The notes beneath the pieces were generated by a model. It saw only the letters and a list, made by a program, of their open reading frames with translations. It was not told where the DNA came from and ran no database searches. Position numbers and translations under genes: made by a program. 18,039 nt of DNA from a virus (lineage: Duplodnaviria; Heunggongvirae; Uroviricota; Caudoviricetes). Below, one piece after another: positions 1 to 18,039 of this stretch (position 1 is its first letter; every line of letters begins with the position of its first letter). The stretch is taken from the IMG/VR virus record IMGVR_UViG_2693429706_000001; one strand, written 5' to 3'.

Positions 1-756
1 TTGAGTGCGGGACGCCTGAATAAAAAATCTCTGGGTATCGTGATGTTGTTATCGGTTGGACTGCTTTTGGCGGGCTGTTCGGGTAGCAAATCATCCGATA
101 CAGGAACGTATTCCGGCTCCGTTTACACCGTGAAACGGGGGGATACGCTATATCGTATTTCGCGCACCACGGGAACCAGCGTAAAAGAACTGGCGCGACT
201 GAACGGCATTTCCCCCCCTTACACCATTGAAGTTGGTCAGAAACTAAAACTGGGTGGGGCGAAAAGTAGCAGTATTACACGTAAATCAACCGCCAAATCA
301 ACGACCAAAACCGCATCGGTTACACCGTCATCAGCGGTACCGAAATCATCCTGGCCGCCAGTAGGGCAACGTTGTTGGTTATGGCCAACGACAGGGAAAG
401 TTATCATGCCGTATTCGACAGCAGATGGCGGCAATAAAGGGATTGATATCTCAGCTCCACGGGGTACACCTATTTACGCCGCGGGTGCAGGAAAGGTGGT
501 GTATGTGGGCAACCAGCTGCGTGGCTACGGTAATCTCATCATGATTAAACACAGTGAAGATTACATTACGGCTTACGCCCATAATGACACGATGCTGGTA
601 AATAATGGGCAAAGCGTGAAGGCTGGGCAAAAAATCGCCACTATGGGGAGCACGGATGCGGCATCTGTTCGCCTGCATTTCCAGATTCGTTACCGTGCAA
701 CGGCAATTGATCCGCTACGTTACTTGCCGCCGCAGGGCAGCAAGCCAAAATGCTGA
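1..756 (+). CDS. ygeR: LysM-domain / M23 (LytM)-family peptidase lipoprotein, YgeR-like
   Basis: 251-aa ORF with signal peptide ending in lipobox LLAGC, a LysM motif (YTVKRGDTLYRISR...LARLNGI) and a C-terminal M23-type peptidase region; lies directly upstream of tRNA-Gly as in the E. coli ygeR-glyU locus. First codon is TTG at window position 1, so the true start and upstream context are not visible. Confidence 0.85.
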   Translation: MSAGRLNKKSLGIVMLLSVGLLLAGCSGSKSSDTGTYSGSVYTVKRGDTLYRISRTTGTSVKELARLNGISPPYTIEVGQKLKLGGAKSSSITRKSTAKSTTKTASVTPSSAVPKSSWPPVGQRCWLWPTTGKVIMPYSTADGGNKGIDISAPRGTPIYAAGAGKVVYVGNQLRGYGNLIMIKHSEDYITAYAHNDTMLVNNGQSVKAGQKIATMGSTDAASVRLHFQIRYRATAIDPLRYLPPQGSKPKC

Positions 757-834
757 TGGCGAATTAATCAGCAGTCAGCAGCGCGGCACTTGCTAAGGAG
801 AGCGTAAGGTTTATAATGCCTTACGCATCTCGAA

Positions 835-908
835 GCGGGCGTAGTTCAATGGTAGAACGAGAGCTTCCCAAGCTCTATACGAGGGTTCGATTCCCTTCGC
901 CCGCTCCA
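835..908 (+). tRNA. glyU: tRNA-Gly (anticodon CCC)
   Basis: 74-nt sequence GCGGGCGTAGTTCAATGGTAGAACGAGAGCTTCCCAAGCTCTATACGAGGGTTCGATTCCCTTCGCCCGCTCCA with acceptor stem, D-loop, anticodon loop CTTCCCAAG, T-loop GGTTCGATTCC and encoded CCA end; matches my recollection of E. coli glyU. Confidence 0.92.
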
Positions 909-1308
909 ATTTATCTTCACCTCATCAATCTGCCATTTTTGCTGTATCTGATTTTCTATATTATCTTAATTCAATCGCTTCAGACTTTTCGCAATCGCCG
1001 TAATATTTCCCCATTTTGTTGTAAATAAAAAGCGTTTACGCAATGCAATCCTTTTGTAACAACCCAGGTAAAACACCTTATTTTCAAGTTGTTAAATAAG
1101 TGGTTATCTACGCTTTTAACAAACGATTGATGGAATATTTTATGAAAGGGAAATCTGCATTAACTCTTCTGCTCGCTGGTATATTTTCGTGCGGCACATG
1201 CCAGGCGACAGGGGCAGAAGTGACGAGTGAATCTGTATTTAACATTCGGTAATGACTCCAACTTATTGATAGTGTTTTATGTTCAGATAATGCCCGATGA
1301 CTTTGTCA

Positions 1309-1318
1309 NNNNNNNNNN
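1309..1318. other. assembly gap (run of 10 N)
   Basis: Ten consecutive n characters; the ORF track translates them as XXXX inside a minus-strand ORF. Confidence 0.99.
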
Positions 1319-1618
1319 TCCGACCAGACTCTGCAGGTCTTCCGCCATCGCGGTGACCATGCCGTGCAGGTTAGAAACCGTCAGTGTCGGACGGGCAGCA
1401 CTGCCCTTGCCGTTCAGTTCAAATCCCGTCCCCTGAATGGGATACGCCTGATACTGTCGCCCCTGCCAGGTGATCGGCTCACCTTTTTCGTTCTGCTCAT
1501 TACAGAAAAAATAACGTTCTCCACCGACCACTGTCAGATCGATTTCCCAGAGCACCACCTGGGCTGACTGAGTGAGGCGTGTCGTCTCATGATGTGTTTC
1601 CTGTGGAATATCCTGCAT
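1319..1618 (-). CDS. minor tail protein L, N-terminal part only (truncated by assembly gap)
   Basis: MQDIPQETHHETTRLTQSAQVVLWEIDLTVVGGERYFFCNEQNEKGEPITWQGRQYQAYPIQGTGFELNGKG... is near-identical in pattern to the lambda gpL N-terminus; AGGAG lies 6 nt upstream of the ATG at 1618. Reading frame runs into the N-run; residues translated beyond the gap do not resemble gpL. Confidence 0.8.
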
Positions 1619-1627
1619 CAGAGACTC

Positions 1628-1957
1628 CTATGCCACGACCTGTTCAAAATCTGCCGTTATGGTTACCCACAACGCCCCCACGCTTGCCGACCATTTACGA
1701 CAAACCACCCTGATCGGCTTCCAGTCATAAGGTGGCGTCCACTGAAATGCGCGGACGCCACCGTGCCGTTCCAGAAAGGCTTTTAAAGATGGGTGTTCAC
1801 ATTTACGAACACGTATCGTCACGCTGTAAGTCGACAACTGGTTATTCAGTCCCGCCGCACGACGCTGTTCATAACCATCGCCCAGCTTCACTGTCACCAC
1901 TTTCGGCTCTGATACCACATTCATATCCGGGCGCACTTTCCAGTGAAACGTCTCCAT
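1628..1957 (-). CDS. minor tail protein M
   Basis: 109-aa ORF METFHWKVRPDMNVVSEPKVVTVKLGDGYEQR...ADFEQVVA is collinear with lambda gpM (MKTFRWKV...EFEQVVN); its ATG overlaps the H stop codon by 1 nt (TAATG). Confidence 0.88.
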   Translation of the reverse strand: METFHWKVRPDMNVVSEPKVVTVKLGDGYEQRRAAGLNNQLSTYSVTIRVRKCEHPSLKAFLERHGGVRAFQWTPPYDWKPIRVVCRKWSASVGALWVTITADFEQVVA

Positions 1958-4900
1958 TACCGATATGCTCCACTTAACCGACCACCATCACGGGCCTGCT
2001 GTTGCATAAAGTCCGCTGCCGCTTTTTTCCCAAGGTCATAAACCACCTTCAGGGCAGCCGGACCTATCTGCCCGTTCGTGCCATCGTTATTGATCTCGAT
2101 GTTGTACTGCGGGGCAAACATCGCCATACCTGAACCACCAATATCCGCCACAACCCCCAGCTTACCGTCAGCACCACGACGCAGTGGCAGAATGGCTTCA
2201 GGTCCCGCTTCCCCCATCACACCCGCGCCTTTTGCAAAAGCAAAAAACGTCGGACGGTTAACCACCGTGCCACTGTAACGACTCAAATCAGCAGACTGAT
2301 AAATCCCCCCATTGGCATTCAGGGAAAGGCTGCTGAGATCAAATCCCAGTACACTGCCAATCCCTTTTATCGATTTCATCATGGTTGCCTGCGCCAGGAT
2401 TTTCGCCATATCTGACAGCACCGAAGAGGTGAAGGATTTGAAGTTGAGTTTGCCGGTAGTGACAAAAGTTGCCAGGCCATTTCCCATGTTGCTGAAGGCT
2501 GACGAGAACACCTGTTCTGCTGTTCCTGCCGTATTGTCTGCATCCACGGTAAAATCCTGAAATGCACGCAGGACTCCGTTTTTCCAGTTACCCTGCACAA
2601 CTTCAAGCTGTTGCCAGTAACGGCGATTCTCATTCAGTTGTCGGTTCAGGCTCTCCGTCAGCGCCTGCTCGGCCTTTCTGTAGTCATCCGTGTTATATGT
2701 CCCTTTCTGCTCACTATCCCGCCTCAACTGCTCCAGCTGTTGCTGGTATTTCTGGCGAAGACTCAGTTGTACCTGATATCGCTGCCGCTGCTGATCACCC
2801 ATACCCACCGTGGCGATATCCAGGTCATGTTGCTGACGCTGAGCGAGCTCTTCTTCAGCCAGTTGACTGGTCAGCTGAATTGTTTTTTTCTTCAGATCGT
2901 TGAGTGCCGTCTGTTTCTGAAGCTCCTGCTGTTTTACATCCAGCAGCGTCAGTGCCTGAATCAGTTCATCTTTACGGGCCAGCACACTCTTTTCATCTGC
3001 CGTCAGTTTTTTCCCGTCCAGATCGCTGATGCGCTGCTGCAGAGCCAGAAGCTGTTTATGCGCTTCTGTCATCTTTTCAGTGGCAATGCCTGCTGACTGT
3101 CTTGCAGCAGCAATCTGTCCTTCCACCTGTGCCTGTTGCTGACTGTACTGCAGCAATAACCGGGTGGCCTCATCATTACGGGTTTCGCGTGTTTTTTTCT
3201 TACCGGATGCCAGGGCTTTCTCGTAACGTTCATTTTCACGTTGTATCGCTGCATCCCTGACAGCCTGATCGGCGTACTGCATGGCATTAATACGCGCAAT
3301 TTCACGCTGATGTCGTGCTGCTTCCGTTTCATTCATCCGGTTCAGTGCAGCATTTTCAGCATTACGTCGTTTCTGTTGCTCCTGATAATTCCGCTCTGCC
3401 TGCTCTTTTGCATCCTGCAAATCCTTCTGGCGTTTTTTCTCCTGAAGATCGTTAAGACGCTGCTGATCGTATTCAACCTGAGAAGATGATGCCGTCCAGG
3501 GGAGTCTTTTCGCCCGCGACACTTTCTCCTGTAAAGCGGCAATCTGTTCATCCAGCGAGTCTTCACGACCAATATTCATGGCCGCATCCCAGAAACGACT
3601 CCATAAATCAGACAGATACTTCAGCGTACTGCCAAGCGCATTGAGGTTATTATCAATATCCGCAGTACGCCGACCGGTTTCCTCTGCCAGTGCAGACATG
3701 GCTATCCGTGCAGCATCACTGGACCGTCCCTGATCCCCAAGGACACGTATCTGCTCAAGCTGAGTGGCAGTAAGAAAATGCAGCTCATTGTCCAGAGCCT
3801 TCGCGGCATTTACAGGATCATCCTTCAGCCGCTTAAACTGATTTATGGTATCGCTGACCGACTGGCCAACCGATCGCTCCATCTGTGCGGCAGCTCTCGC
3901 CACCATACCGATATCGTTTCCACGAAATGCACCACTCCCCACCACCTGAGCCAGCACACCGGCTGCAGCATGTTGCGTGATACCATTCCCGGAAATAGCA
4001 CGACTGAGCGTCCACAGCTGCCCGGCAGTGACTCCGGCATAATGCCCCGTCAGCGACAACTGGCGGTTAAATTCTTCCCCCTCCTTCTGACCGTCATACC
4101 AGGCTTTACCCAGACCATAGACGGACGCGGCAATACCGCCAATAACCCCGCCAAGCATCATGCCTTTCGGTGACATCAGAGTGTCTATCCATCCGGCACG
4201 GTTAGCCAGCGTTATCCCGGATCCCCTCAGCGCCCCTAAATTGCCGCGGGCCAGTTCACCTATCAGAACGCCTATCTCCTGGCGGGCCGCTGCACTTTTC
4301 AGACCCAGCGAATGCGTGGCTTTTCCTGCCTGCTCCATTTTGCGGATATACACTTCTGCAGCACTGCTTACCCCCAGCTGGGCAGCCTTAGCACGAAGCA
4401 ACTCAGAAGAAGAAAGATTCTGGCGGGTTGCCTGCTCTTTAAGCTGACGGATAAACGCCACTTTCTGTCGGGTAGCCTCTTCCTCAGCCTGCGTAAGAAC
4501 ACGGGTTTTCGCCGTAACCTCAGAAATCAGCGCCAGATAATCCTGCTGACCAATCCCGCCACTGTTTCTGGCCTGTCGGATCTGCTGCTGAATACGCTGT
4601 AATTCCTGCAGCCCCGCACTGGCCTGTTTCACACTGTCAATCTGACGATAAAACGCAGCAGCTGCTTTATCCTGAGCCTCCGCCAGAGCCATGGCCTGCG
4701 CCTGTTCCTCGCGCATTTTCTGGCTCAGTGCCTCCATACGCTGGCGGGTTTTCTCCACCTCGCGGGCCATGCGTTCATGAGCCTGTGCGTTCTTCTCCAC
4801 CGTCTGCGCATGGACGGATGCGGCTGTTGCAGCCGAAGACGCCGCCTGCGTTGTCTGCCGGGCGGCCTGAGTCTGACGCTCCATAAAACGCTGCATACGG

Positions 4901-5022
4901 GCAGAAGACCGTTCTGCATCGCTGGCTGCACCATTCAGAAGGTTTTTGATACGGGGAATTTCATTTTTAAACTCTGCCGCATCAATCCCCAAATCAATGA
5001 CCAGGTTGGCTATCTGGTCCAT
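1957..5022 (-). CDS. tail tape measure protein (lambda gpH-like), about 1021 aa
   Basis: Very long ORF with an extended Q/E/R/A-rich coiled-coil centre and the lambda-H-like C-terminus ...NDGTNGQIGPAALKVVYDLGKK.... Start placed at ATG 5022 (MDQIANLVIDLGIDAAEF, aligning with lambda H MAEPVGDLVVDLSLDAARF) with GGAGG 8 nt upstream; the ORF-track start at 5052 is a TTG. Confidence 0.9.
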   Translation of the reverse strand: MDQIANLVIDLGIDAAEFKNEIPRIKNLLNGAASDAERSSARMQRFMERQTQAARQTTQAASSAATAASVHAQTVEKNAQAHERMAREVEKTRQRMEALSQKMREEQAQAMALAEAQDKAAAAFYRQIDSVKQASAGLQELQRIQQQIRQARNSGGIGQQDYLALISEVTAKTRVLTQAEEEATRQKVAFIRQLKEQATRQNLSSSELLRAKAAQLGVSSAAEVYIRKMEQAGKATHSLGLKSAAARQEIGVLIGELARGNLGALRGSGITLANRAGWIDTLMSPKGMMLGGVIGGIAASVYGLGKAWYDGQKEGEEFNRQLSLTGHYAGVTAGQLWTLSRAISGNGITQHAAAGVLAQVVGSGAFRGNDIGMVARAAAQMERSVGQSVSDTINQFKRLKDDPVNAAKALDNELHFLTATQLEQIRVLGDQGRSSDAARIAMSALAEETGRRTADIDNNLNALGSTLKYLSDLWSRFWDAAMNIGREDSLDEQIAALQEKVSRAKRLPWTASSSQVEYDQQRLNDLQEKKRQKDLQDAKEQAERNYQEQQKRRNAENAALNRMNETEAARHQREIARINAMQYADQAVRDAAIQRENERYEKALASGKKKTRETRNDEATRLLLQYSQQQAQVEGQIAAARQSAGIATEKMTEAHKQLLALQQRISDLDGKKLTADEKSVLARKDELIQALTLLDVKQQELQKQTALNDLKKKTIQLTSQLAEEELAQRQQHDLDIATVGMGDQQRQRYQVQLSLRQKYQQQLEQLRRDSEQKGTYNTDDYRKAEQALTESLNRQLNENRRYWQQLEVVQGNWKNGVLRAFQDFTVDADNTAGTAEQVFSSAFSNMGNGLATFVTTGKLNFKSFTSSVLSDMAKILAQATMMKSIKGIGSVLGFDLSSLSLNANGGIYQSADLSRYSGTVVNRPTFFAFAKGAGVMGEAGPEAILPLRRGADGKLGVVADIGGSGMAMFAPQYNIEINNDGTNGQIGPAALKVVYDLGKKAAADFMQQQARDGGRLSGAYR

Positions 5023-5718
5023 AACGCACACCTCCGGAAATACCTTCCCCAAGATGCATCAGTTCTTCGTCCGTTCGCTCCGGTATCCCGTTCTCTTCCG
5101 GTAAAAGGCTGAAATCAGCCACCGCAGCATCACTGCTGCCGGACACCATTCTCACGATCAATGCCTTCAGCGAGGCAAACTGCGCATCCATCCACACATC
5201 ACTGAAGCTCTGCATCCGGAAATAATCGCCCCACTCACCAAGCTCAGTGGCCGACATTTCCGACAGCATCCGCCGCCAGTCTGCCCGCCTGAACTCCCGG
5301 GCAAGCCGCATGACAAACTGCATTTCCCGCGTCAGGACTTTTCCGGCGTCAGCACCTCATGCTCCAAATCCCCGGCATTCTCAATGGCTCCCATACCGCT
5401 CAGCGACAGAACCATCTCCGCCCCCGCTCCCAGGGCATCATACGACCATGTTGTAATAACGGATGCGCAAAGCGTCTCAACATCCTGAGACTGTTCCGCA
5501 TTCCACAGTGAGCGGGAAACCAGCCAGGCATTGATATCCATCCCCATCCGCAGAAAAGCAATCTGTCGTTCAGCCTCCGGCAGTTCTCCCTCTTCGGCAT
5601 CAAACTTTGCCGTTCGCTGCTGAACAAACGCCAGATATTCAATTCTCTGCAGCCCGGACAGCTCACTGAGCACCACGGACTGCTTTTCATAATTAAACGT
5701 GCCCTGTTTCAGAAACAT
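4994..5718 (-). CDS. tail assembly chaperone G-T fusion, made by programmed -1 ribosomal frameshift near the end of G
   Basis: The T-like ORF (MQFVMRLAREFRRADWRR...) is in the -1 frame relative to G, is open from 5356, and overlaps the 3' end of G; a slippery-type heptamer GGAAAAG sits at 5344..5338. Same architecture as lambda G/GT. Confidence 0.7.
5332..5718 (-). CDS. tail assembly chaperone G
   Basis: MFLKQGTFNYEKQSVVLSELSGLQRIEYLA... aligns with lambda gpG (MFLKTESFEHNGVTVTLSELSALQRIEHLA...). Start chosen at the second ATG of ATGATG (5718), 6 nt after GGAG; the ORF-track start at 5760 is TTG and spans a terminator hairpin. Confidence 0.85.
   Translation of the reverse strand: MFLKQGTFNYEKQSVVLSELSGLQRIEYLAFVQQRTAKFDAEEGELPEAERQIAFLRMGMDINAWLVSRSLWNAEQSQDVETLCASVITTWSYDALGAGAEMVLSLSGMGAIENAGDLEHEVLTPEKS
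5338..5344 (-). other. candidate -1 frameshift slippery heptamer GGAAAAG (G GAA AAG in the G frame)
   Basis: Minus-strand sequence CCG GAA AAG TCC TGA closes G; shifting -1 gives GGA AAA GTC CTG ACG ..., which continues into T. The lambda site is GGGAAAG, one base different. Confidence 0.55.
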
Positions 5719-5734
5719 CATGTTCTCCACCTGC

Positions 5735-5758
5735 AAAAAAGCCCCGGATAACCGGGGC
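5735..5758 (-). terminator. intrinsic (rho-independent) terminator between V and G
   Basis: Minus-strand GCCCCGG-TTAT-CCGGGGC (perfect 7-bp GC stem, 4-nt loop) followed directly by TTTTTT; lies in the 57-nt V-G intergenic space. Confidence 0.7.
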
Positions 5759-5778: not shown

Positions 5779-6522
5779 TTAACCTGCGGCGCTGACAGCC
5801 ACCGCAGCCACTGCCACAAAATCGCCGTCAGAAGTCATGCCCACAATGCTGACACTGCCCTGCTTCACGCCTTTCACCGTGGCCACAAGCCCGTTCAGGG
5901 TCACCGTGGCAGTCTGTGGATCTGTCGAATGCACACTGATCGCTTTGTCACTGGCTCCGTCAGGTTTTACTGTAAAGGTCAGCGTGGTGGTTGCTCCCAC
6001 TTTTACACTGGCAGATGCCGGTGCCACCGTCAGCCCGGTAACGCTCACTGTTTCAGTGCCTTCCTCTGCCAGATACGGACGCCCCACACCGCTGATTTTC
6101 ACTGTGTGGGTCATCACGTCTTTTGAGGCAATGGTTTTACCCAGTGAGCTCAGCCAGCCACGGAAAACATCAACAGTGCCGTTGGGATATTTGATACGAA
6201 ACGCGCAGACTTCACCGGAGTCGAACAACTGAACCAGTTTTTTCTGTCCGCTGTCACCCGGACGCCAGGCCAGCGTCGCCGAAGTATCACCGACGGATTT
6301 CTGCCCCTGGGTTGTCGTTTTCCAGTCTGCATCTTCATCATCGAGATAAGTGTCATCTTCTGCATCAGCGGTCATTTCGCCAGGTTGCAGATCCTTCACC
6401 ATCGCAAGACGCAGCCAGTCAGTGTCCGATAAAGGGTTCGCAAACGCATCGCCCTTGCCGGTGTACATCCAGAACGTCGTTCCCGCACCTTTCGTTTTTG
6501 CCAGTGGATTTGGTGTGGTCAT
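5779..6522 (-). CDS. major tail protein V with C-terminal Ig-like (Big_2-type) domain
   Basis: ...KTKGAGTTFWMYTGKGDAFANPLSDTDWLRLAMVKDL...DDEDADWKTTTQGQKSVGDTSATLAW... is collinear with lambda gpV; the C-terminal region (VTGLTVAPASASVKVGATTTLTFTVKPDGASDK...) is Ig-like. Start at ATG 6522, 6 nt after AAGGAG; the ORF-track first codon is GTG. Confidence 0.9.
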   Translation of the reverse strand: MTTPNPLAKTKGAGTTFWMYTGKGDAFANPLSDTDWLRLAMVKDLQPGEMTADAEDDTYLDDEDADWKTTTQGQKSVGDTSATLAWRPGDSGQKKLVQLFDSGEVCAFRIKYPNGTVDVFRGWLSSLGKTIASKDVMTHTVKISGVGRPYLAEEGTETVSVTGLTVAPASASVKVGATTTLTFTVKPDGASDKAISVHSTDPQTATVTLNGLVATVKGVKQGSVSIVGMTSDGDFVAVAAVAVSAAG

Positions 6523-6533
6523 TGCCACCTCCT

Positions 6534-8199: not shown

Positions 8200-10209
8200 T
8201 TACGCCGTACATTTCACCAGACCGCGGTGATCAACTGGCGCGACACCGGCGTCAATACGCACTTTCGTTGTCACGCCATCCACACTGAAGCCCTCCATCT
8301 GATCAATATATGGCGTATCCACACCGTTGAGATAAGCCACTTCAATCGTATCGGAGCCTTTTGACGCAGCCAGGTAGAAGGTGGTCTGGCTGTTATCATC
8401 AAGACGAGGCTCTGCAATAACGGTCGCAAAATCTTTCACCGGGTTAATAATACCGGCGTTAATGTCAGCCCCCTTGACACTTGAGGAGCGAATGACCTGG
8501 TTAGCAACAGACTCCATCGCCGTCGGTACCAGTACGAACGCAGGACGAATATTCAGATGACGCTCCCCCTCTTTCTGAACGCGCATCAACTGGCGGGCTT
8601 TATCCAGCGATGCCACGTCCATTGCAGCGCTCTCCAGTACGTTTGCATGTTTCGCTTTATCGAACAGACTTACATTATCTGTGGAGATTTTCGGGTTAGA
8701 CGTCAGAATGGCATAAACCAGATCGGCAATAGTGGATTTCGCCGCACGGCCCAGTTTCATCGGGACATCGGTCAGCATATTCAGATCATCATTGATAATG
8801 GCCTGACGGGTGATACTGAACAGCTCGCCATAGGTCGCCAGTGCAATAGTGGCCTGTTTATCTCCGGTGGTGACGTATTTATATTCCGCCCCTTCACGCA
8901 CCTGACGCAGAGCACTGAAGCCACCCATACCCACACGATGGGCAATTTTAAAATCAGACAACTGACCTTTCCGCGTCCACTGTTCATAGGTTTCAGGGGC
9001 ATCTTCCCAGCCCTGCAGAATGGCTTTGTTCGCAACATCCAGCAGAATATTACCGAAGTCAGACGTACTGTGTGTGAACGCCGCACCGACCATCTGCATC
9101 GGGTTATAACTGGAAACCCCAATACCCCGTTCAGTCAGTGACATACGGGCATATTCACGCAGGGTCATCCCGTTGTAGACATTATCACGTTCGGTTTTTT
9201 CAAATCCGGCACGCGCCATCAGCGCCTGGCGGATCCCGTCCCCCACAAAATTACCGTTACCGGCATAAATATGAGCCGGGGTATTTTTATTGGATGGCGT
9301 GGACTCGCGCCCCATCTCGTTCAACAGCTTTTCGCGGGCCTGCTCCAGCGAACATTCAGGATCGGCAAGACACTGAGCCTGCAGCGTCTGATAACGCCCG
9401 CCAAACATGGCAAACAGATCATTAATACCGTTTACACGCGCTTTTTGCTCTGCCAGTACCTGCGCACGGATGCTGTTTTCATCCACCACGGGTGCTGCTG
9501 CCTGCACTGGCGTCCGGGAGGCTTCAGGTTCATTATCCTGTACGCGTGGAGCACTGTTGCGTGGCGGAGTAATCATGTTTCGAATGGATTCCGGCATCTT
9601 TTTAAATTCCTCTGTACGTTTTGACTGAATACATGCCATTGCCTTAACGGCTGGCGTTACCTGATCAGCAAATCCATGTGCCAGACATTCGGCACCGGAC
9701 ATCCAGGTCTCATCCGCCAGCATGGCAGCAATTTCATCGGTGGTTTTCCCGGTTTTCTGTGCATAAGCGGGTAACAGAACCGCCTCAACTTTATCGAGCA
9801 GGTCGGCATAGGTGCGCATGTCCTCCGCATCACCGCCCGTAAAGCCAAATGGTTTATGAATCATCATGAAGGTGTTTTCCGGCATAATGACCGGGTTTCC
9901 CACCATCGCAATGACCGACGCCATTGACGCCGCCACACCGTCGACATAAACGGTAATGGACGCACCATGTGTTTTCAGCGCATTAAAAATGGCGATGCCT
10001 TCAAAGACATCGCCACCCGGTGAATTAATATGGAGATTAATGTGGGTGATATCGCCCAGTGCATTCAGATCACTGATAAACTGCTTCGCTGTAACACCCC
10101 AGAAACCAATCTCGTCATAAATATAAATATCCGCGTCACTCTGGTGACCAGCCTGCATCCTGAACCAGGAATTATTCTTCGGACTGGTCGTCGGTGTGCT
10201 GCGGCTCAT
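8200..10209 (-). CDS. fused prohead protease (ClpP/S14-like) - scaffold - HK97-fold major capsid protein
   Basis: N-terminal region has ClpP hallmarks (INSPGGDVFEGIAIFNAL..., VDGVAASMASVIAMVG with the nucleophile Ser, MIHKP with the His); a central Ala/Gln/Glu-rich linker; the C-terminal ~300 aa resemble a phage major capsid protein. Start uncertain: ATG 10209 overlaps the portal by 38 nt, the alternative ATG at 10158 lies 13 nt after the portal stop; neither has a strong Shine-Dalgarno. Confidence 0.8.
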   Translation of the reverse strand: MSRSTPTTSPKNNSWFRMQAGHQSDADIYIYDEIGFWGVTAKQFISDLNALGDITHINLHINSPGGDVFEGIAIFNALKTHGASITVYVDGVAASMASVIAMVGNPVIMPENTFMMIHKPFGFTGGDAEDMRTYADLLDKVEAVLLPAYAQKTGKTTDEIAAMLADETWMSGAECLAHGFADQVTPAVKAMACIQSKRTEEFKKMPESIRNMITPPRNSAPRVQDNEPEASRTPVQAAAPVVDENSIRAQVLAEQKARVNGINDLFAMFGGRYQTLQAQCLADPECSLEQAREKLLNEMGRESTPSNKNTPAHIYAGNGNFVGDGIRQALMARAGFEKTERDNVYNGMTLREYARMSLTERGIGVSSYNPMQMVGAAFTHSTSDFGNILLDVANKAILQGWEDAPETYEQWTRKGQLSDFKIAHRVGMGGFSALRQVREGAEYKYVTTGDKQATIALATYGELFSITRQAIINDDLNMLTDVPMKLGRAAKSTIADLVYAILTSNPKISTDNVSLFDKAKHANVLESAAMDVASLDKARQLMRVQKEGERHLNIRPAFVLVPTAMESVANQVIRSSSVKGADINAGIINPVKDFATVIAEPRLDDNSQTTFYLAASKGSDTIEVAYLNGVDTPYIDQMEGFSVDGVTTKVRIDAGVAPVDHRGLVKCTA

Positions 10210-11680
10210 GTCGTTTCGTTGCGGCACTGCTGCCTCCTTTATCACTGGCCGGATCGGTATCAAATACCAGATCCAGCTTGCGGTTTTCATCAATTTCGGC
10301 CTTGCGCCGACGTTTGACATCATCCGGATTACGACCACCAGCACGTACCCAGTCTGATTCTGTCGCCGCTCCACCACGAATCTGGATTTTCCAGGCCTCA
10401 GCCTCCTTAACAGGGTCAATCCACGGCATCACCGGTCCGGAATACACCGCGGTATACAGTGAAGAACGGTCAAGATCGCGGGGTAGCCTGATAACACCGG
10501 ATGCCACAGCCTGTTTCAGCCAGGCACGATACATCGGACGGGTGACGGCACCAATAAACCAGTCCTGCAGGATCAGGTAGCCATCAGTGGATTCAACCAG
10601 CTCCTGACGCTGGGCGCTGTAAGTGCCGTTATAGTTGCGCGCTGTACTGGAAAAACTCAGACGACTGCCCGCCGCCACGGCACGCAACTGACCATTACGA
10701 AAAGTTTCAAGGTTAGGATTGGGGCGATCCGACTTCACCATTCCGATTTCTTCGCCGGGTTTCAGATCATCGTAAATAATGCCTGGCTGAATGGTAAGCT
10801 CGCGTTCCTTATCCTTGCTGCCATTACCATCCGCTTCATAGCTCTGCCCGTCGCCTTTCCGGATGTACATCCCCAGAGCAGCGGCGATCCTTGCTGCAGT
10901 CAGCTCAGAATCTTCATACTCTTTCAGAGCACTGAGGCGGATCAGCACACCGGACAATAAAGACGTCCCGCGCATCTGGTGCAGACGGCGAACAAATTTA
11001 AGATGCAGCATTCGCTCTGCATCCACTTCTTTGGTTTCCATCTGCCGTCCGGATACGGGACGGCTTTTATACACCAGATATTTTTCGGGACGCCCCCAGT
11101 CATCAACAAACACGCCCTGATTCAGCCTGTTGCTCTCATCACTGGTCATGGGAATAAAGTCCGGCTCGAGCGCCTCCAGCCAGAAATGAACACCGGCAGA
11201 AGGCGTCAGGCTGTTTATGCGCCCGGAAACCATCTGGGCAAACACCTCACCATCGCGCAGCCAGGTACGAAGCATCAGACGTTCCAGCATCGGACGGGTA
11301 AACTGCCCGGTGACTTCCGGGCTGACAGACCATTCACTCCATCGGGTGCGAATCTCCGCAGCCAGGTCACGGGCAATGGCCCCATTGCGTAATACCGGAT
11401 GTGGCTCGACAATAATCCCGTTTTTCCCCACCACCCGTTCTTCCAGCTTGTCAAATACACCAATAACCAGATCGTGGTTGTTATCAAGGTAACGGGCCTG
11501 CTCACGTAACGACACGGCCCCGTACTGGCTTAACTGGTCGGCAGTTCGGTTCTCCCGTCGGGCTTTGTGTGTCCGCGTCGTTTTTACGGCCTCATAAGCC
11601 TGGATCACCGCACGGGAACGCAGCCTTGCCGCTTTCCATCCTGGTGAAAAAACGCCAATCACATCATCAAGAATTGCCAT
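10172..11680 (-). CDS. portal protein (lambda gpB family)
   Basis: 502-aa ORF in the portal position between gpW-like and protease genes. Start set at ATG 11680 (MAILDDVIGVFSPGW...) with GAGG 5 nt upstream and a 1-nt overlap with the W stop (TGATG). Confidence 0.85.
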   Translation of the reverse strand: MAILDDVIGVFSPGWKAARLRSRAVIQAYEAVKTTRTHKARRENRTADQLSQYGAVSLREQARYLDNNHDLVIGVFDKLEERVVGKNGIIVEPHPVLRNGAIARDLAAEIRTRWSEWSVSPEVTGQFTRPMLERLMLRTWLRDGEVFAQMVSGRINSLTPSAGVHFWLEALEPDFIPMTSDESNRLNQGVFVDDWGRPEKYLVYKSRPVSGRQMETKEVDAERMLHLKFVRRLHQMRGTSLLSGVLIRLSALKEYEDSELTAARIAAALGMYIRKGDGQSYEADGNGSKDKERELTIQPGIIYDDLKPGEEIGMVKSDRPNPNLETFRNGQLRAVAAGSRLSFSSTARNYNGTYSAQRQELVESTDGYLILQDWFIGAVTRPMYRAWLKQAVASGVIRLPRDLDRSSLYTAVYSGPVMPWIDPVKEAEAWKIQIRGGAATESDWVRAGGRNPDDVKRRRKAEIDENRKLDLVFDTDPASDKGGSSAATKRHEPQHTDDQSEE

Positions 11681-14811: not shown

Positions 14812-15003
14812 TCAGAAGGACATCACAGCATGCCCACACAAATTAGTGTGAGTGTCCTGTTTCTTACTACGCGCAGGACTGACGAGCATGAGGGGAAAAT
14901 ACGAGAACCGAAATGCCTTATCTTCAGAAATGCAGCCGGCATCCGAACTGGACGATATTGTAAATTCACCTAAATACGAGGCATTGCTGTAGTTGAATTG
15001 CAT
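14812..15003 (-). CDS. hypothetical 63-aa ORF (weak)
   Basis: ATG-initiated ORF with no recognisable Shine-Dalgarno and a low-complexity product; listed only because it lies in the cargo region. Confidence 0.2.
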   Translation of the reverse strand: MQFNYSNASYLGEFTISSSSDAGCISEDKAFRFSYFPLMLVSPARSKKQDTHTNLCGHAVMSF

Positions 15004-15086
15004 TGCTGTATTAGCCTGACAGTGACAGAATACGATATTGACTCTGTCACTTGTGAAATGGTCAGAATGGTTAGCAGTTATGGTGA

Positions 15087-15293
15087 TCAGTCAACCACCA
15101 GGGAATAATCCTTCGTATTCTTATCGTGCTTTACTAACGCGGCCTCAATTGCCCTGAATGCTTCCAGAGACACTTGATGTTCTATACATGCAATTACAAC
15201 ATCCGGGTAACCCATCGAAATGGTGCTATTAAGCATAGTTTTTACACGAACCTGCTCCTGGGAGGGGGCATCAGTGTATTGATCTTTATGCAT
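15087..15293 (-). CDS. hypothetical small protein (68 aa), uncharacterised moron
   Basis: ATG at 15293 preceded by GGAG with a 7-nt spacer; product [68 protein letters not shown]. Size and position upstream of terS recall the YbcW/YnfO-type small proteins of DLP12/Qin, but I cannot confirm this from memory. Confidence 0.45.
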
Positions 15294-15500
15294 TTTGTCG
15301 CTCCATGCGTTTGCTCTTCACTTACGGCTAAAAATATAACGTCAAATCACTCAGCATGAAAGAGTTAAAGATTCAGCGCGTTTCCCTTACATAATCTGTC
15401 GTTTGTATTCTCTTCAGGCATACCGGAAAGACTAGGTATTGTCACACAACCAATACCATCGACAATCGAGATTTATACCTATTCGGTAATGTTTAAATAT

Positions 15501-15523
15501 AACAAAACCCCGTAAAAACGAGG
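15501..15523 (-). terminator. possible intrinsic terminator downstream of the gns-like gene
   Basis: Minus-strand CCTCG-TTTTTA-CGGGG (5-bp stem with one G-U pair) followed by TTTTGTT, about 60 nt after the gns-like stop. Confidence 0.3.
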
Positions 15524-15586
15524 TTTATGGGTAATTTGTATTGTTGAATAGCATCTGATGAGAAATTGATGCTAATACTAAACAGA

Positions 15587-15760
15587 CTAGATTAAATCAA
15601 TCTTGATATCATAGCTTTCAAGACCAGTCATTTTTTCCCGTGCAGTAAACTGGATACTGGTAACTTCTTTCCCGGTCTTTTTCTTAAGCTCAATGATTTT
15701 TTTTGTTATATATTCAGAAATATCTGCTTCTGTTTTTGTTTTTAACTCTTCAATGTTCAT
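15587..15760 (-). CDS. GnsA/GnsB-family small protein (57 aa)
   Basis: MNIEELKTKTEADISEYITKKIIELKKKTGKEVTSIQFTAREKMTGLESYDIKIDLI is collinear with E. coli GnsA/GnsB (MNIEEL...TGKEV...FTAREKMTGLESYD.KI); start at the second ATG (15760), 4-5 nt after AAGAGGA. Confidence 0.85.
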   Translation of the reverse strand: MNIEELKTKTEADISEYITKKIIELKKKTGKEVTSIQFTAREKMTGLESYDIKIDLI

Positions 15761-15932
15761 CATTTCCTCTTTTAGTCTGTTATGACTTTCCTGGTACACA
15801 GTAGTGTCAATTATATGGAGCAAACGTATAAAAGATAAGATGAAACATCGCAATAATCAACATACGACGGTCTAAATTTCACACAAACAGATAAAGATGA
15901 TTATCATTTATTATCAATGCATTAGAATCAAA

Positions 15933-16124
15933 TCAATTCAAGAGTCTCATTGCTGCTTCCAGAATTTCTTCTGAAGTTACATGTCGATCCGCTGCTACAT
16001 AAATGACTTTATGATCTCCGGTCAGAGATGGAAACCCTGCAGCCATTACAGTGAGGTGTGTTGTTTCGCCATTTGGATATTCACGCATGATGGTGTTAAC
16101 TCCGGTCATCACTGGCACTACCAT
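15933..16124 (-). CDS. hypothetical small protein (63 aa) in the position occupied by ynfN in Qin
   Basis: ATG-initiated ORF MVVPVMTGVNTIMREYPNGETTHLTVMAAGFPSLTGDHKVIYVAADRHVTSEEILEAAMRLLN between the csp and gns-like genes; no family recognised by eye. Confidence 0.5.
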   Translation of the reverse strand: MVVPVMTGVNTIMREYPNGETTHLTVMAAGFPSLTGDHKVIYVAADRHVTSEEILEAAMRLLN

Positions 16125-16208
16125 TGCTGGTTCAGAGTTAAAAAAAACTATTATTTTTTTTCATAATGTTACCGTAATATGTGAGTATCCATCGACTAGA
16201 CACTAAGC

Positions 16209-16228
16209 AAAAAAGCTCCCGAAGGAGC
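16209..16228 (-). terminator. intrinsic terminator ending the csp transcription unit
   Basis: Minus-strand GCTCC-TTCG-GGAGC (UUCG tetraloop) followed by TTTTTT, immediately after the stop of the zinc-ribbon mini-ORF and about 210 nt after the csp stop. Confidence 0.7.
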
Positions 16229-16236
16229 CTTCATTT

Positions 16237-16452
16237 TCACTTTCTTAAATCTAACGATAGACGGCTAACATTTAAGTATTGTGAAATATTATCAAATGTA
16301 ATCATCATTGATTTACAAAAGATACATTTTGCCCCGAAAGGATTCCTGTCAGAAACATCAAAAGATGATGTTCTATACTGAGAACCATGGCAACACGGGC
16401 ATCTAAAGTGAATATGGTTTGTAATATTTTCTACCTCAAAGTGCCACAACAT
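16237..16452 (-). CDS. candidate zinc-ribbon small protein (71 aa; paired CPCC and CIFC motifs)
   Basis: ORF in a different frame whose ATG (16452) lies inside the last codons of csp (17-nt overlap); product [50 protein letters not shown].... Directly followed by a strong terminator. Position matches the small proteins reported next to cold-shock genes (YmcF/YnfQ type), but identity is not confirmed. Confidence 0.35.
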
Positions 16453-16648
16453 GAACAGCCGCGGGGCCTTTAGGTCCGTTCTCAATACCAAATTCGACTT
16501 CCTGATTCTCAGTTAACGTTTTGAAATCGTTGCTCTGAATAGCTGAGAAATGGACAAACACATCTTTGCTACCATCTTTCGGCGTGATGAAACCAAAACC
16601 TTTTTCAGGGTTAAACCATTTCACTAAACCAGTCATTTTGTTAGACAT
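16436..16648 (-). CDS. cold-shock protein, CspA family (CspI/CspB-like)
   Basis: [70 protein letters not shown] has the RNP1 motif (KGFGFI) and RNP2 motif (VFVHF) of the cold-shock domain; AAGG Shine-Dalgarno upstream of a tandem ATG ATG. Confidence 0.93.
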
Positions 16649-16850
16649 CATTATTACCTTTTGAAGAAGTTAGCCCTTGGGCAGAATGGTCCGAAAAAAA
16701 ATATCAGAGAGAAAAACCAACAAGGAAATCTCAAGAGGTACAAATAATAAAATTATAACAATGACTGCTTCAGATAATTTTGTAACAAACCAGAACACCA
16801 TTAACGCATGATTAACCAACCATAGCAAGGATTACTTTTGTAAAGAAAAA
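16649..16850 (-). promoter_or_regulatory. putative csp promoter and long AT-rich 5' leader
   Basis: About 360 nt of AT-rich non-coding sequence separates the Rz stop from the csp start. CspA-family genes characteristically have long regulatory 5' UTRs, but I did not locate exact promoter or cold-box motifs. Confidence 0.3.
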
Positions 16851-17011
16851 CACACGAATGAAACAATAGCTTTATTTATTAATAAAACGTGTCATTCTGT
16901 CTAATGACCTTTTATCTTACCCTTAAGATTTCAAGGATTTTGACTCATGGAAGAGTCCTTTTTATTTAAATTTCACATTCAGCGCTAAAAATAATCCGAT
17001 TTAATATTAAT

Positions 17012-18039
<1,028 letters not shown>

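What the first reader, a model, noticed from the sequence alone, without database searches (positions are those of the whole stretch)
5320..5360. Lambda-type G/GT programmed -1 frameshift with a variant slippery heptamer (GGAAAAG instead of GGGAAAG)
G ends ...CCG GAA AAG TCC TGA. The -1 frame is open from 5356 and runs into the T-like ORF, which has no plausible independent Shine-Dalgarno context. The heptamer differs by one base from the lambda site: the A-site Lys shift AAG to AAA is preserved, but the P-site re-pairing (GAA to GGA) is weaker, so frameshift efficiency may differ from lambda and alter the G:GT ratio.
Basis: partly seen in the sequence, partly recalled or inferred. Interest (0 to 1): 0.4.

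Follow-up and report, generated by a model that had tools for sequence, protein, structure and literature searches.

The report
Known phage tail-chaperone frameshift site
This is the standard programmed -1 ribosomal frameshift by which a lambda-like E. coli prophage makes a little fused G-T tail-assembly chaperone; its GGAAAAG slip site differs from lambda's by one base, but it is the commonest form in this gene family and is already annotated in phages N15, phi80 and LLS, so the finding is correct but ordinary.

Summary
A G-type chaperone ORF (5718..5332, PF06894) ends CCG GAA AAG TCC TGA. The -1 frame is open from 5356 and encodes a T domain (PF06223) that runs into the tape-measure gene. 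The only slip-prone sequence in the 25-nt overlap is G_GAA_AAG (5344..5338).

The heptamer is not unusual. Among 55 unique G/T junctions from 155 loci, 46 use GGAAAAG and only 5 use lambda's GGGAAAG. By lineage, 17 of 23 T-protein clusters use GGAAAAG. The base before GAA is G in all 17 cluster representatives, although that codon encodes Pro, Ala, Leu, Val or Thr. GenBank records of N15, phi80 and LLS already mark GGAAAAG as the -1 slippery sequence at this junction. Plaque-forming phages (Ayreon, mEp460) carry the same 25-nt overlap as the window or differ from it by one base.

I found no conserved stimulator. Downstream folding is no better than shuffles. An upstream GAGGTG is polymorphic within the clade.

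Verdict: a real, ordinary lambda-type G/GT frameshift. The only gap is annotation: public records list G and T separately, and the fused product is absent from protein collections. Efficiency relative to lambda is untested. Interest is low.

The parts
5779..6528 (-). Major tail tube gene (lambda V-like, with a C-terminal Ig-like domain), immediately upstream of G
   Evidence: Pfam Phage_TTP_12 2.7e-66 and Big_2 1.9e-11. PGAP in a near-identical genome places the start at 6522.
5731..5758 (-). Intrinsic-terminator-like hairpin GCCCCGG-TTAT-CCGGGGC plus a T-run, between V and G
   Evidence: Terminator scan. The same position is annotated as a terminator in the Ayreon, mEp460, N15 and HK97 records.
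5332..5718 (-). Tail assembly chaperone G ORF (128 aa; an alternative ATG lies at 5721); stop TGA at 5334..5332
   Evidence: Pfam PF06894 Phage_TAC_2 1.8e-39. PGAP calls it gpG at 5332..5718. The exact protein is recorded on at least 1000 contigs.
5353..5358 (-). SD-like GAGGTG ending 8 nt upstream of the heptamer; a possible weak stimulator that is not conserved
   Evidence: Anti-SD duplex -9.2 kcal/mol; about 3% of 9-mers in G+T reach -8 or below. The element is polymorphic within the clade (GAGGCG, -5.6) and absent from most other lineages.
5357..5359 (-). TGA stop in the T (-1) frame; the T frame is open from 5356
   Evidence: Read directly from the sequence; junction script.
5338..5344 (-). 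Slip site G_GAA_AAG: P-site GAA (Glu) re-pairs to GGA, A-site AAG (Lys) re-pairs to AAA
   Evidence: It is the same heptamer, in the same register, that is annotated as the slippery sequence in N15, phi80 and LLS.
4994..5338 (-). T-domain coding segment read after the slip (114 aa, VLTREMQFV...PGH); stop at 4996..4994; overlaps the tape-measure start by 29 nt
   Evidence: Pfam PF06223 Phage_tail_T 5.1e-15. T-frame conservation starts at the slip codon. The predicted fusion is 241 aa.
5321..5323 (-). ATG used by public annotation as an independent start for T (109 aa); lies 8 nt after the G stop and has no SD
   Evidence: PGAP CDS 4994..5323. Best anti-SD pairing -1.1 kcal/mol. This Met aligns with Leu in most other lineages.
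1957..5022 (-). Tape measure protein gene (lambda H-like), the client of G/GT
   Evidence: Pfam TMP_2 7.4e-49, Tape_meas_lam_C 3.2e-22, TMP_4 2.4e-17.

Best explanation
This is a lambda-type programmed -1 ribosomal frameshift in the tail assembly chaperone genes of a common E. coli lambdoid prophage of the mEp460/cdtI/Ayreon type. Most ribosomes translate G to its stop and make the 128-aa chaperone. A small fraction slip back one base on G_GAA_AAG. In that slip, A-site tRNA-Lys moves from AAG to the cognate AAA, and P-site tRNA-Glu moves from GAA to GGA, keeping positions 1 and 3 paired with a G-U at position 2. Those ribosomes continue in the T frame and make a 241-aa G-T fusion. By analogy with lambda, the G part binds the tape measure protein and the T part recruits the major tail protein, so the slip rate sets the G:GT ratio needed for tail assembly. 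What is shown here: the anatomy, family membership, the conservation and register of the heptamer, nucleotide-level selection on its first base, and the absence of a conserved stimulator. What is inferred: that slippage occurs, its rate, and the roles of the two products.
For: 1. Gene order is V-G-T-H, with G = PF06894 and T = PF06223.
2. T lies in the -1 frame and overlaps G by only 25 nt, which contain one slip-prone heptamer.
3. All 91 loci of the window clade (T at least 98% identical) carry CCG GAA AAG TC(C/A) TGA.
4. Across 55 unique junction contexts, 46 have GGAAAAG in the same register. By lineage, 17 of 23 T-protein clusters at 80% identity have it.
5. The codon before GAA is CCG, GCG, CTG, GTG, ACG or TTG, encoding five different amino acids. 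Its third base is G in 46 of 46 contexts and 17 of 17 cluster representatives. At the third positions of the three upstream codons, G appears in only 3/17, 8/17 and 8/17. That is selection on the RNA sequence, not the protein.
6. T-frame protein conservation (GK[VA]...) begins at the slip codon in all 55 contexts, upstream of the window's ATG. Only 20 of 55 contexts have any ATG before the conserved ARE motif.
7. GenBank records mark this heptamer as the -1 slippery sequence in N15, phi80 (with a joined gpG-T CDS) and LLS. Gifsy-2, with the same ACG CCG GAA AAG TCC TGA, is annotated as a frameshift hybrid.
8. Isolated phages whose records name a laboratory E. coli host carry this junction: Ayreon has the same 25-nt overlap and mEp460 differs from it by one base (GTG to GCG). 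phi458 is 99.9% identical over 851 nt, but I did not read its overlap.
9. G_GA is a recognised non-canonical X_XX class (PMC5009743).
Against: No fusion protein or slip rate has been measured for this locus. In a reconstituted E. coli system without stimulators, G GAA AAG gave mainly zero-frame product and served as the 'less slippery' control (PMC6924986). A lone A_AA.G tetramer gives about 0.15% without a stimulator (PMC4066793). I found no conserved stimulator. In this clade an ATG sits 8 nt after the G stop, so some free T made by reinitiation cannot be excluded.
Confidence: 0.9

Rival explanations
1. T is made as an independent 109-aa protein, as public annotation implies. It would start at ATG 5323 either de novo or by termination-reinitiation after the G stop 8 nt upstream, and no frameshift would be needed.
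For: PGAP and the phage records annotate T from this ATG. The exact 109-aa protein is recorded on at least 1000 contigs. The ATG lies close to the G stop codon.
Against: There is no SD: the best pairing is -1.1 kcal/mol. This Met aligns with Leu in most lineages, and 35 of 55 junction contexts have no ATG at all before the conserved ARE motif. T-frame residues upstream of the ATG (GK[VA]L..E) are conserved, and in this clade they lie after the G stop, so only a frameshifted ribosome could translate them. This model does not explain the conservation of the heptamer and its first G.
Confidence: 0.06
2. The slip is a one-tRNA event on the A_AAG tetramer alone. P-site re-pairing of tRNA-Glu plays no part, and the GGA context is incidental.
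For: [quoted passage not shown] A_AA.G is the most shift-prone tetramer in E. coli (PMC4066793). Rare junctions such as G GCA AAA TAG have no plausible P-site re-pairing.
Against: Heptamer position 1 is a synonymous third position in G and lies upstream of the translated part of the T frame. It is G in 46 of 46 contexts and 17 of 17 lineage representatives, across six different codons. That fits a requirement for G:C pairing at position 1 of the P-site codon after the shift. GAA is never GAG.
Confidence: 0.15
3. The heptamer is a degenerate lambda site (GGGAAAG mutated to GGAAAAG) in a decaying prophage, with tail assembly already lost.
For: It is one substitution away from the lambda site. 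The window sits in a bacterial chromosome, and its L gene looks truncated.
Against: The same junction occurs in isolated phages and in N15 and phi80. It is the majority state across lineages. The apparent L truncation is a 10-N scaffold gap, not decay.
Confidence: 0.01
4. The frame change comes from transcriptional slippage of RNA polymerase on the A-run, not from the ribosome.
For: The site contains a homopolymeric run of A.
Against: The run is only four A. From general knowledge, and as noted in PMC3711429, programmed transcriptional realignment needs runs longer than about 7 A or 8 T. The conserved G at position 1 and the preference for AAG over AAA point to codon-anticodon re-pairing.
Confidence: 0.01

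Closest known systems
Bacteriophage lambda G / G-T frameshift (G_GGA_AAG; Levin, Hendrix and Casjens 1993; Xu, Hendrix and Duda 2004, 2013, 2014, as cited in PMC5009743)
   Same: Same gene order (V-G-T-H), same Pfam families (PF06894, PF06223) and same -1 direction. The A-site event is the same, tRNA-Lys moving from AAG to AAA. T-frame conservation starts at the slip codon. No strong flanking stimulator is evident.
   Different: The P-site codon is GAA (Glu, re-pairing to GGA with a middle G-U) rather than GGA (Gly, re-pairing to GGG with a wobble G-U). The overlap is 25 nt against 64 nt. G stops 3 nt after the heptamer, against 15 nt in lambda. The T domain is only about 38% identical and lacks lambda's C-terminal repeat.
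N15 genes 14/15, phi80 genes 14/G-T and phage LLS genes 11/12
   Same: Identical heptamer G_GAA_AAG in the same register at the same junction. It is explicitly annotated as the -1 slippery sequence, and phi80 and LLS carry joined CDSs.
   Different: T is only 42-44% identical. The preceding codon is GCG or GTG rather than CCG. The overlaps are longer (73-85 nt), with G ending 15 nt after the heptamer.
Salmonella prophage Gifsy-2 STM1039 / STM1041.1n
   Same: It is one of the closer diverged lineages outside the clade (T 54% identical; a Citrobacter locus is closer at 66%). The site ACG CCG GAA AAG TCC TGA is identical, and it is annotated as 'part of G+G' frameshift hybrid protein'.
   Different: The host genus differs. 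There is no ATG in the T frame after the slip site.
G_GA-type non-canonical heptamers of RNA viruses (insect flaviviruses, umbraviruses, dianthoviruses, mesoniviruses; PMC5009743)
   Same: The same departure from X_XXY_YYZ: X_XX = G_GA, so the P-site tRNA re-pairs with a mismatch.
   Different: Those sites work on eukaryotic ribosomes, use different A-site codons, and usually have strong downstream RNA structures. None was found here.
E. coli dnaX A_AAA_AAG frameshift
   Same: The same A-site codon and tRNA-Lys(UUU). The window has an SD-like GAGGTG 8 nt upstream, a spacing close to that of the dnaX stimulator.
   Different: dnaX has a fully cognate P-site shift, a conserved SD-like element and a hairpin, and shifts at high efficiency. 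Here the SD-like element is polymorphic and no hairpin is supported.

Membership tests
Lambda-type tail assembly chaperone G/GT -1 programmed frameshift | Two ORFs located between the major tail protein gene and the tape measure gene | tested here: met
   V (5779..6528), G (5332..5718), T (4994..5356 open frame) and H (1957..5022), all on the minus strand.
Lambda-type tail assembly chaperone G/GT -1 programmed frameshift | The downstream ORF is in the -1 frame relative to the upstream ORF and overlaps its 3' end | tested here: met
   25-nt overlap, 5356..5332.
Lambda-type tail assembly chaperone G/GT -1 programmed frameshift | A slip-prone sequence in the correct register inside the overlap | tested here: met
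   G_GAA_AAG at 5344..5338 is the only candidate in the 8 codons. The A-site shift is cognate and the P-site shift near-cognate.
Lambda-type tail assembly chaperone G/GT -1 programmed frameshift | Homology of the two parts to lambda G and T | tested here: met
   PF06894 1.8e-39 and PF06223 5.1e-15, both above their gathering scores.
Lambda-type tail assembly chaperone G/GT -1 programmed frameshift | Slip site and overlap conserved among diverged homologues beyond what protein coding requires | tested here: met
   46 of 55 unique contexts and 17 of 23 lineages carry it. Position 1 is G in 17 of 17 representatives, against 3-8 of 17 at neighbouring third positions.
Lambda-type tail assembly chaperone G/GT -1 programmed frameshift | The downstream ORF lacks its own translation initiation signals | tested here: inconclusive
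   An ATG exists at 5323, but its SD pairing is -1.1 kcal/mol and it is not conserved across lineages. Reinitiation cannot be excluded by computation.
Lambda-type tail assembly chaperone G/GT -1 programmed frameshift | A fusion protein is made at a low, fixed ratio to G and is required for tail assembly | not testable with these tools
   This needs a reporter assay, immunoblot or mass spectrometry, and phage genetics.
Canonical X_XXY_YYZ slippery heptamer | The first three bases are identical, so the P-site tRNA re-pairs at positions 1 and 2 | tested here: not met
   X_XX = G_GA, so position 2 would be a G-U pair. The site belongs to the recognised 'intermediate' G_GA class (PMC5009743).
Canonical X_XXY_YYZ slippery heptamer | YYZ allows cognate A-site re-pairing (AAG to AAA, the preferred bacterial case) | tested here: met
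   A_AAG. Sharma et al. state the rule (PMC4066793).
dnaX/IS-type stimulated -1 frameshift | A conserved upstream SD-like element at stimulatory spacing | tested here: inconclusive
   The window has GAGGTG 8 nt upstream (-9.2 kcal/mol), but clade members have GAGGCG (-5.6) and most lineages have nothing.
dnaX/IS-type stimulated -1 frameshift | A downstream hairpin or pseudoknot 5-9 nt after the slip site | tested here: not met
   MFE z-scores of -0.25 (80 nt downstream) and -0.46 (163 nt spanning the site) against dinucleotide shuffles. Pseudoknots were not modelled.

The most novel reading that the evidence does not exclude
G_GAA_AAG fails the X_XXY_YYZ rule and served as the 'less slippery' control in vitro. 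Even so, it is the selected majority slip site of the PF06223 chaperone family in Enterobacterales, with its first G invariant. The most novel reading left open is that these phages depend on a second-position G-U re-pairing of P-site tRNA-Glu, or on an unrecognised stimulator, to set a G:GT ratio different from lambda's. One candidate stimulator is the conserved acidic nascent peptide E-x-x-[TS]-x-E-K just before the site. If so, the systematic heptamer surveys, which searched only X_XXZ_ZZN patterns, would have missed a whole class of bacterial frameshift sites.
Probability: 0.2. Interest if true: 0.35.

Novelty: already known. Interest (0 to 1): 0.1.

Why it matters
It matters mainly for annotation. 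This prophage type is present in about a third of complete E. coli genomes (1,847 of 5,426), yet every record I inspected lists G and a 109-aa 'T' as separate proteins. The real functional product, a 241-aa G-T fusion, is absent from a 15-billion-protein collection. There is also a small mechanistic point. The commonest natural G/T slip site in enterobacterial lambdoid phages is a non-canonical heptamer whose first base is under clear nucleotide-level selection. That makes it a convenient natural test case for P-site mismatch tolerance in bacterial -1 frameshifting.

Tried and rejected
1. Downstream stimulatory structure. Folding of 80 nt and 163 nt around the site is no better than shuffles.
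2. Conserved upstream SD-like stimulator. It is present in the window but polymorphic within the clade, and absent from most lineages.
3. Literature on the heptamer. Searches for 'GGAAAAG' with 'frameshift' or 'phage', and for 'G GAA AAG', found only the Rodnina-laboratory control use. No paper discusses it as a phage slip site.
4. Key papers. Xu/Hendrix/Duda 2004 and the phi80/Lula genome paper are not held. I therefore could not confirm whether this heptamer was tabulated or tested there, and the precedent rests on GenBank feature annotations.
5. HK97. It has an annotated -1 frameshift here too, but it did not appear among the T-family hits and I did not compare it further.
6. Phage-encoded tRNAs. 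A related prophage in strain HS13-1 carries tRNA-Lys(UUU) and tRNA-Gly(UCC). The window's prophage has none, and the only tRNA in the window is the host glyU.
7. Decaying prophage. The truncated gene L is explained by a 10-N scaffold gap.
8. The Z/U overlap flagged by my script is an ordinary ATGA-type gene overlap, not a frameshift.

Full report
**Observation.** The genes in this part of the window are on the minus strand. Reading the reverse complement, an ORF starting at ATG 5718 (alternative ATG at 5721) ends ...CTG ACG CCG GAA AAG TCC TGA, with the stop at 5334..5332. The frame one base back has a TGA at 5359..5357. It is then open from 5356 to a stop at 4996..4994, and its end overlaps the start of a 1021-aa ORF (ATG 5022, preceded by GGAGGTG). 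The two frames therefore overlap by only 25 nt, or 8 codons. A -1 slip on G_GAA_AAG (5344..5338) gives ...LTPEK|VLTREMQFV... and a 241-aa fusion.

**What the genes are.** The upstream ORF matches Pfam PF06894, the lambda tail assembly chaperone G (1.8e-39). The -1 frame matches PF06223, minor tail protein T (5.1e-15). The ORF before them is a lambda-type tail tube protein with an Ig-like domain. The ORF after them is a tape measure protein with TMP_2 and Tape_meas_lam_C domains. The rest of the window is a lambda-like morphogenesis block: a DUF1441-family protein in the small-terminase position, large terminase gpA, portal, a ClpP-protease/capsid fusion, a cement protein, Z, U, then V-G-T-H-M-L. 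The 851-nt G/T region is 97.6-99.9% identical to phages phi458, Ayreon, cdtI, mEp460, Tritos and others. It occurs in 1,847 of 5,426 complete E. coli genomes. Every record I inspected in this clade annotates G and T as two separate CDSs, with T starting at ATG 5323.

**Is the heptamer unusual?** No. I collected 155 loci encoding T-family relatives: annotated phages, one genome per bacterial species and IMG/VR viral contigs. For each I located the G stop, the opening of the T frame and the in-register slip site.
- All 91 loci of the window's own clade carry CCG GAA AAG TC(C/A) TGA.
- After de-duplication to 55 unique 70-nt contexts, 46 have GGAAAAG, 5 have lambda's GGGAAAG, 2 have GGCAAAA, 1 has GGGAAAA and 1 has AAAAAAG.
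- Clustering the T proteins at 80% identity gives 23 lineages, of which 17 use GGAAAAG.
- Those lineages span Escherichia, Salmonella (Gifsy-2), Citrobacter, Kosakonia, Kluyvera, Leclercia, Atlantibacter, Klebsiella, Enterobacter, Phytobacter, Providencia, Sodalis and Symbiopectobacterium, with T identities to the window of 40-66%.

Lambda's heptamer is the minority form. Many of the 'lambda' hits in odd hosts are identical lambda sequence, probably laboratory contamination.

**It is already annotated.** Three records mark this heptamer at this junction:
- The RefSeq record of N15 carries a misc_feature 'slippery sequence for -1 translational frameshift' at 10027..10033, which I read as GGAAAAG.
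- The phi80 record marks the same heptamer and has a joined gpG-T CDS.
- The LLS record says 'minus-one programmed translational frameshift site GGAAAAG'.

Gifsy-2, whose site ACG CCG GAA AAG TCC TGA is identical to the window's, is annotated as part of a frameshift hybrid. The Atkins et al. review lists G_GA as a recognised non-canonical form of X_XX (PMC5009743).

**Evidence that the site is functional and not just inherited.** The string alone is not significant, at 6 copies in the window against 2.9 expected. Three features go beyond chance.
1. The codon preceding GAA varies: CCG, GCG, CTG, GTG, ACG or TTG, encoding Pro, Ala, Leu, Val or Thr. Its third base, which is heptamer position 1, is G in 46 of 46 contexts and 17 of 17 lineage representatives. 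At the third positions of the three codons upstream, G is found in only 3/17, 8/17 and 8/17. That base is synonymous in G and lies upstream of the translated part of T, so the constraint acts on the RNA. It fits P-site tRNA-Glu needing a G:C pair at position 1 of GGA after the shift.
2. The Glu codon is always GAA, never GAG. The Lys codon is AAG in all 46 GGAAAAG contexts. From general knowledge, AAG is the minority Lys codon in E. coli. Sharma et al. found it to be the most shift-prone A-site codon (PMC4066793).
3. T-frame protein conservation (GK[VA]L..E..F) begins at the slip codon in all 55 contexts. In the window clade these residues lie after the G stop and before the ATG, so only a frameshifted ribosome could translate them.

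**Independent initiation of T.** The ATG at 5323 has essentially no Shine-Dalgarno pairing (-1.1 kcal/mol). It aligns with Leu in most lineages, and 35 of 55 contexts have no ATG at all between the slip site and the conserved ARE motif. Some termination-reinitiation 8 nt after the G stop cannot be excluded in this clade. It cannot be the family's general mechanism.

**Stimulators and likely efficiency.** The 80 nt downstream and a 163-nt span around the site fold no better than dinucleotide shuffles (z = -0.25 and -0.46). Upstream, the window has GAGGTG ending 8 nt before the heptamer (-9.2 kcal/mol against the anti-SD; about 3% of 9-mers in G+T reach -8 or below). Other clade members have GAGGCG (-5.6), and most lineages have nothing comparable. 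At most this is a local modulator.

Published data bear on efficiency, though not for this locus:
- In a reconstituted system without stimulators, G GAA AAG gave mainly zero-frame product and was used as the 'less slippery' comparison to G GGA AAG (PMC6924986).
- A bare A_AA.G tetramer gives about 0.15% in vivo without a stimulator and 5.6% with a strong pseudoknot (PMC4066793).
- P-site mismatches of the A-U to G-U kind carry a modest penalty in the thermodynamic model of Bock et al. (PMC6787027).

Lambda's ratio is about 30:1 according to PMC5009743. The system needs only a low rate.

**Comparison and novelty.** Functionally, and by every computable membership criterion, this is a lambda-type G/GT frameshift. 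It fails only the strict X_XXY_YYZ definition and falls into the known G_GA class. The heptamer, the junction and the mechanism are all precedented, so I rate it already known.

What is missing is annotation. The exact G (128 aa) and 'T' (109 aa) proteins are each recorded on at least 1,000 contigs, but the 241- or 242-aa fusion is not in the collection. A minor point of residual interest concerns systematic surveys of bacterial -1 sites. Sharma et al. searched only X_XXZ_ZZN patterns, and the GeneTack study's programmed-frameshift clusters were selected on seven A-rich heptamers. I infer that both would have missed this class.

**Limits.** I could not read Xu/Hendrix/Duda 2004 or the phi80 and N15 genome papers, so I do not know whether GGAAAAG was ever tested experimentally. 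Pseudoknots were not modelled. The lineage counts treat 80% T-protein clusters as independent, which is only approximately true. No experiment was possible.

Noticed in passing
window 1..1319: The left 1,309 nt is E. coli chromosome, not prophage: actS/ygeR (a LysM/M23 lipoprotein, + strand 1..756), glyU tRNA-Gly(CCC) at 835..908, and an IS1 end. A run of 10 N follows at 1310..1319, after which the sequence resumes in the middle of prophage gene L. The window therefore spans a scaffold join, and the 'truncated' L (Pfam positions 1-74 of 206) is an assembly artefact.
   Followed up: yes
window 5731..5758 (minus strand): There is a strong intrinsic-terminator-like hairpin (7 G-C pairs, loop TTAT, T6) between the major tail gene V and chaperone gene G. 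The same position is annotated as a terminator in Ayreon, mEp460, N15 and HK97. A partial terminator here would lower expression of G/GT and the tape measure relative to V. That would be a second, transcriptional layer of ratio control upstream of the frameshift.
   Followed up: partly
L159 17227..17536 (E. coli HS13-1 prophage, related to the window): A related prophage carries a tRNA cluster: Gly(UCC), Thr(UGU), Lys(UUU) and a CAU-anticodon tRNA (Met by ARAGORN, Ile by PGAP). It lies between the lysis genes and the next upstream gene. tRNA-Lys(UUU) is the slipping A-site tRNA of the G/T site. The window has no such cluster, and its region 14894..17506 is not homologous to HS13-1.
   Followed up: partly
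L021 (Kluyvera), L023 (Ewingella), L051 (Providencia rustigianii), L011/L035/L068 (Providencia): A few lineages have the zero-frame stop codon directly after the slip site: G GCA AAA TAG, G GGA AAA TAG and G GAA AAG TAG. In G GCA AAA the P-site tRNA-Ala has no plausible -1 re-pairing, so an A-site-only slip, possibly helped by the adjacent stop, may operate there.
   Followed up: no
window 8200..10419 (minus strand): A single ORF fuses a ClpP-like prohead protease domain (PF00574) to a major capsid domain (PF25209). PGAP names the homologue a 'ClpP-like prohead protease/major capsid protein fusion protein'. Its 5' end overlaps the portal ORF in the mechanical ORF list, and PGAP starts it at 10226.
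   Followed up: no
G C-termini across loci L005..L070, codons -5 to -1 before the slip site: The peptide just upstream of the slip site is conserved as E-x-x-[TS]-x-E-K. Glu is at codon -5 in 42 of 46 contexts, and Thr or Ser at codon -2 in 42 of 46. This holds even though the rest of the G C-terminus is variable and acidic. It could reflect G function or a nascent-peptide effect on slippage.
   Followed up: no
Genome-contig loci L053..L065, L072..L075: Sequence identical to lambda G/T turns up in assemblies of unrelated organisms (Kitasatospora, Pseudomonas, Oceanobacillus, Shewanella, Enterococcus and others), mostly on short, low-coverage contigs. This is most likely lambda DNA contamination of sequencing libraries rather than real prophages.
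   Followed up: no
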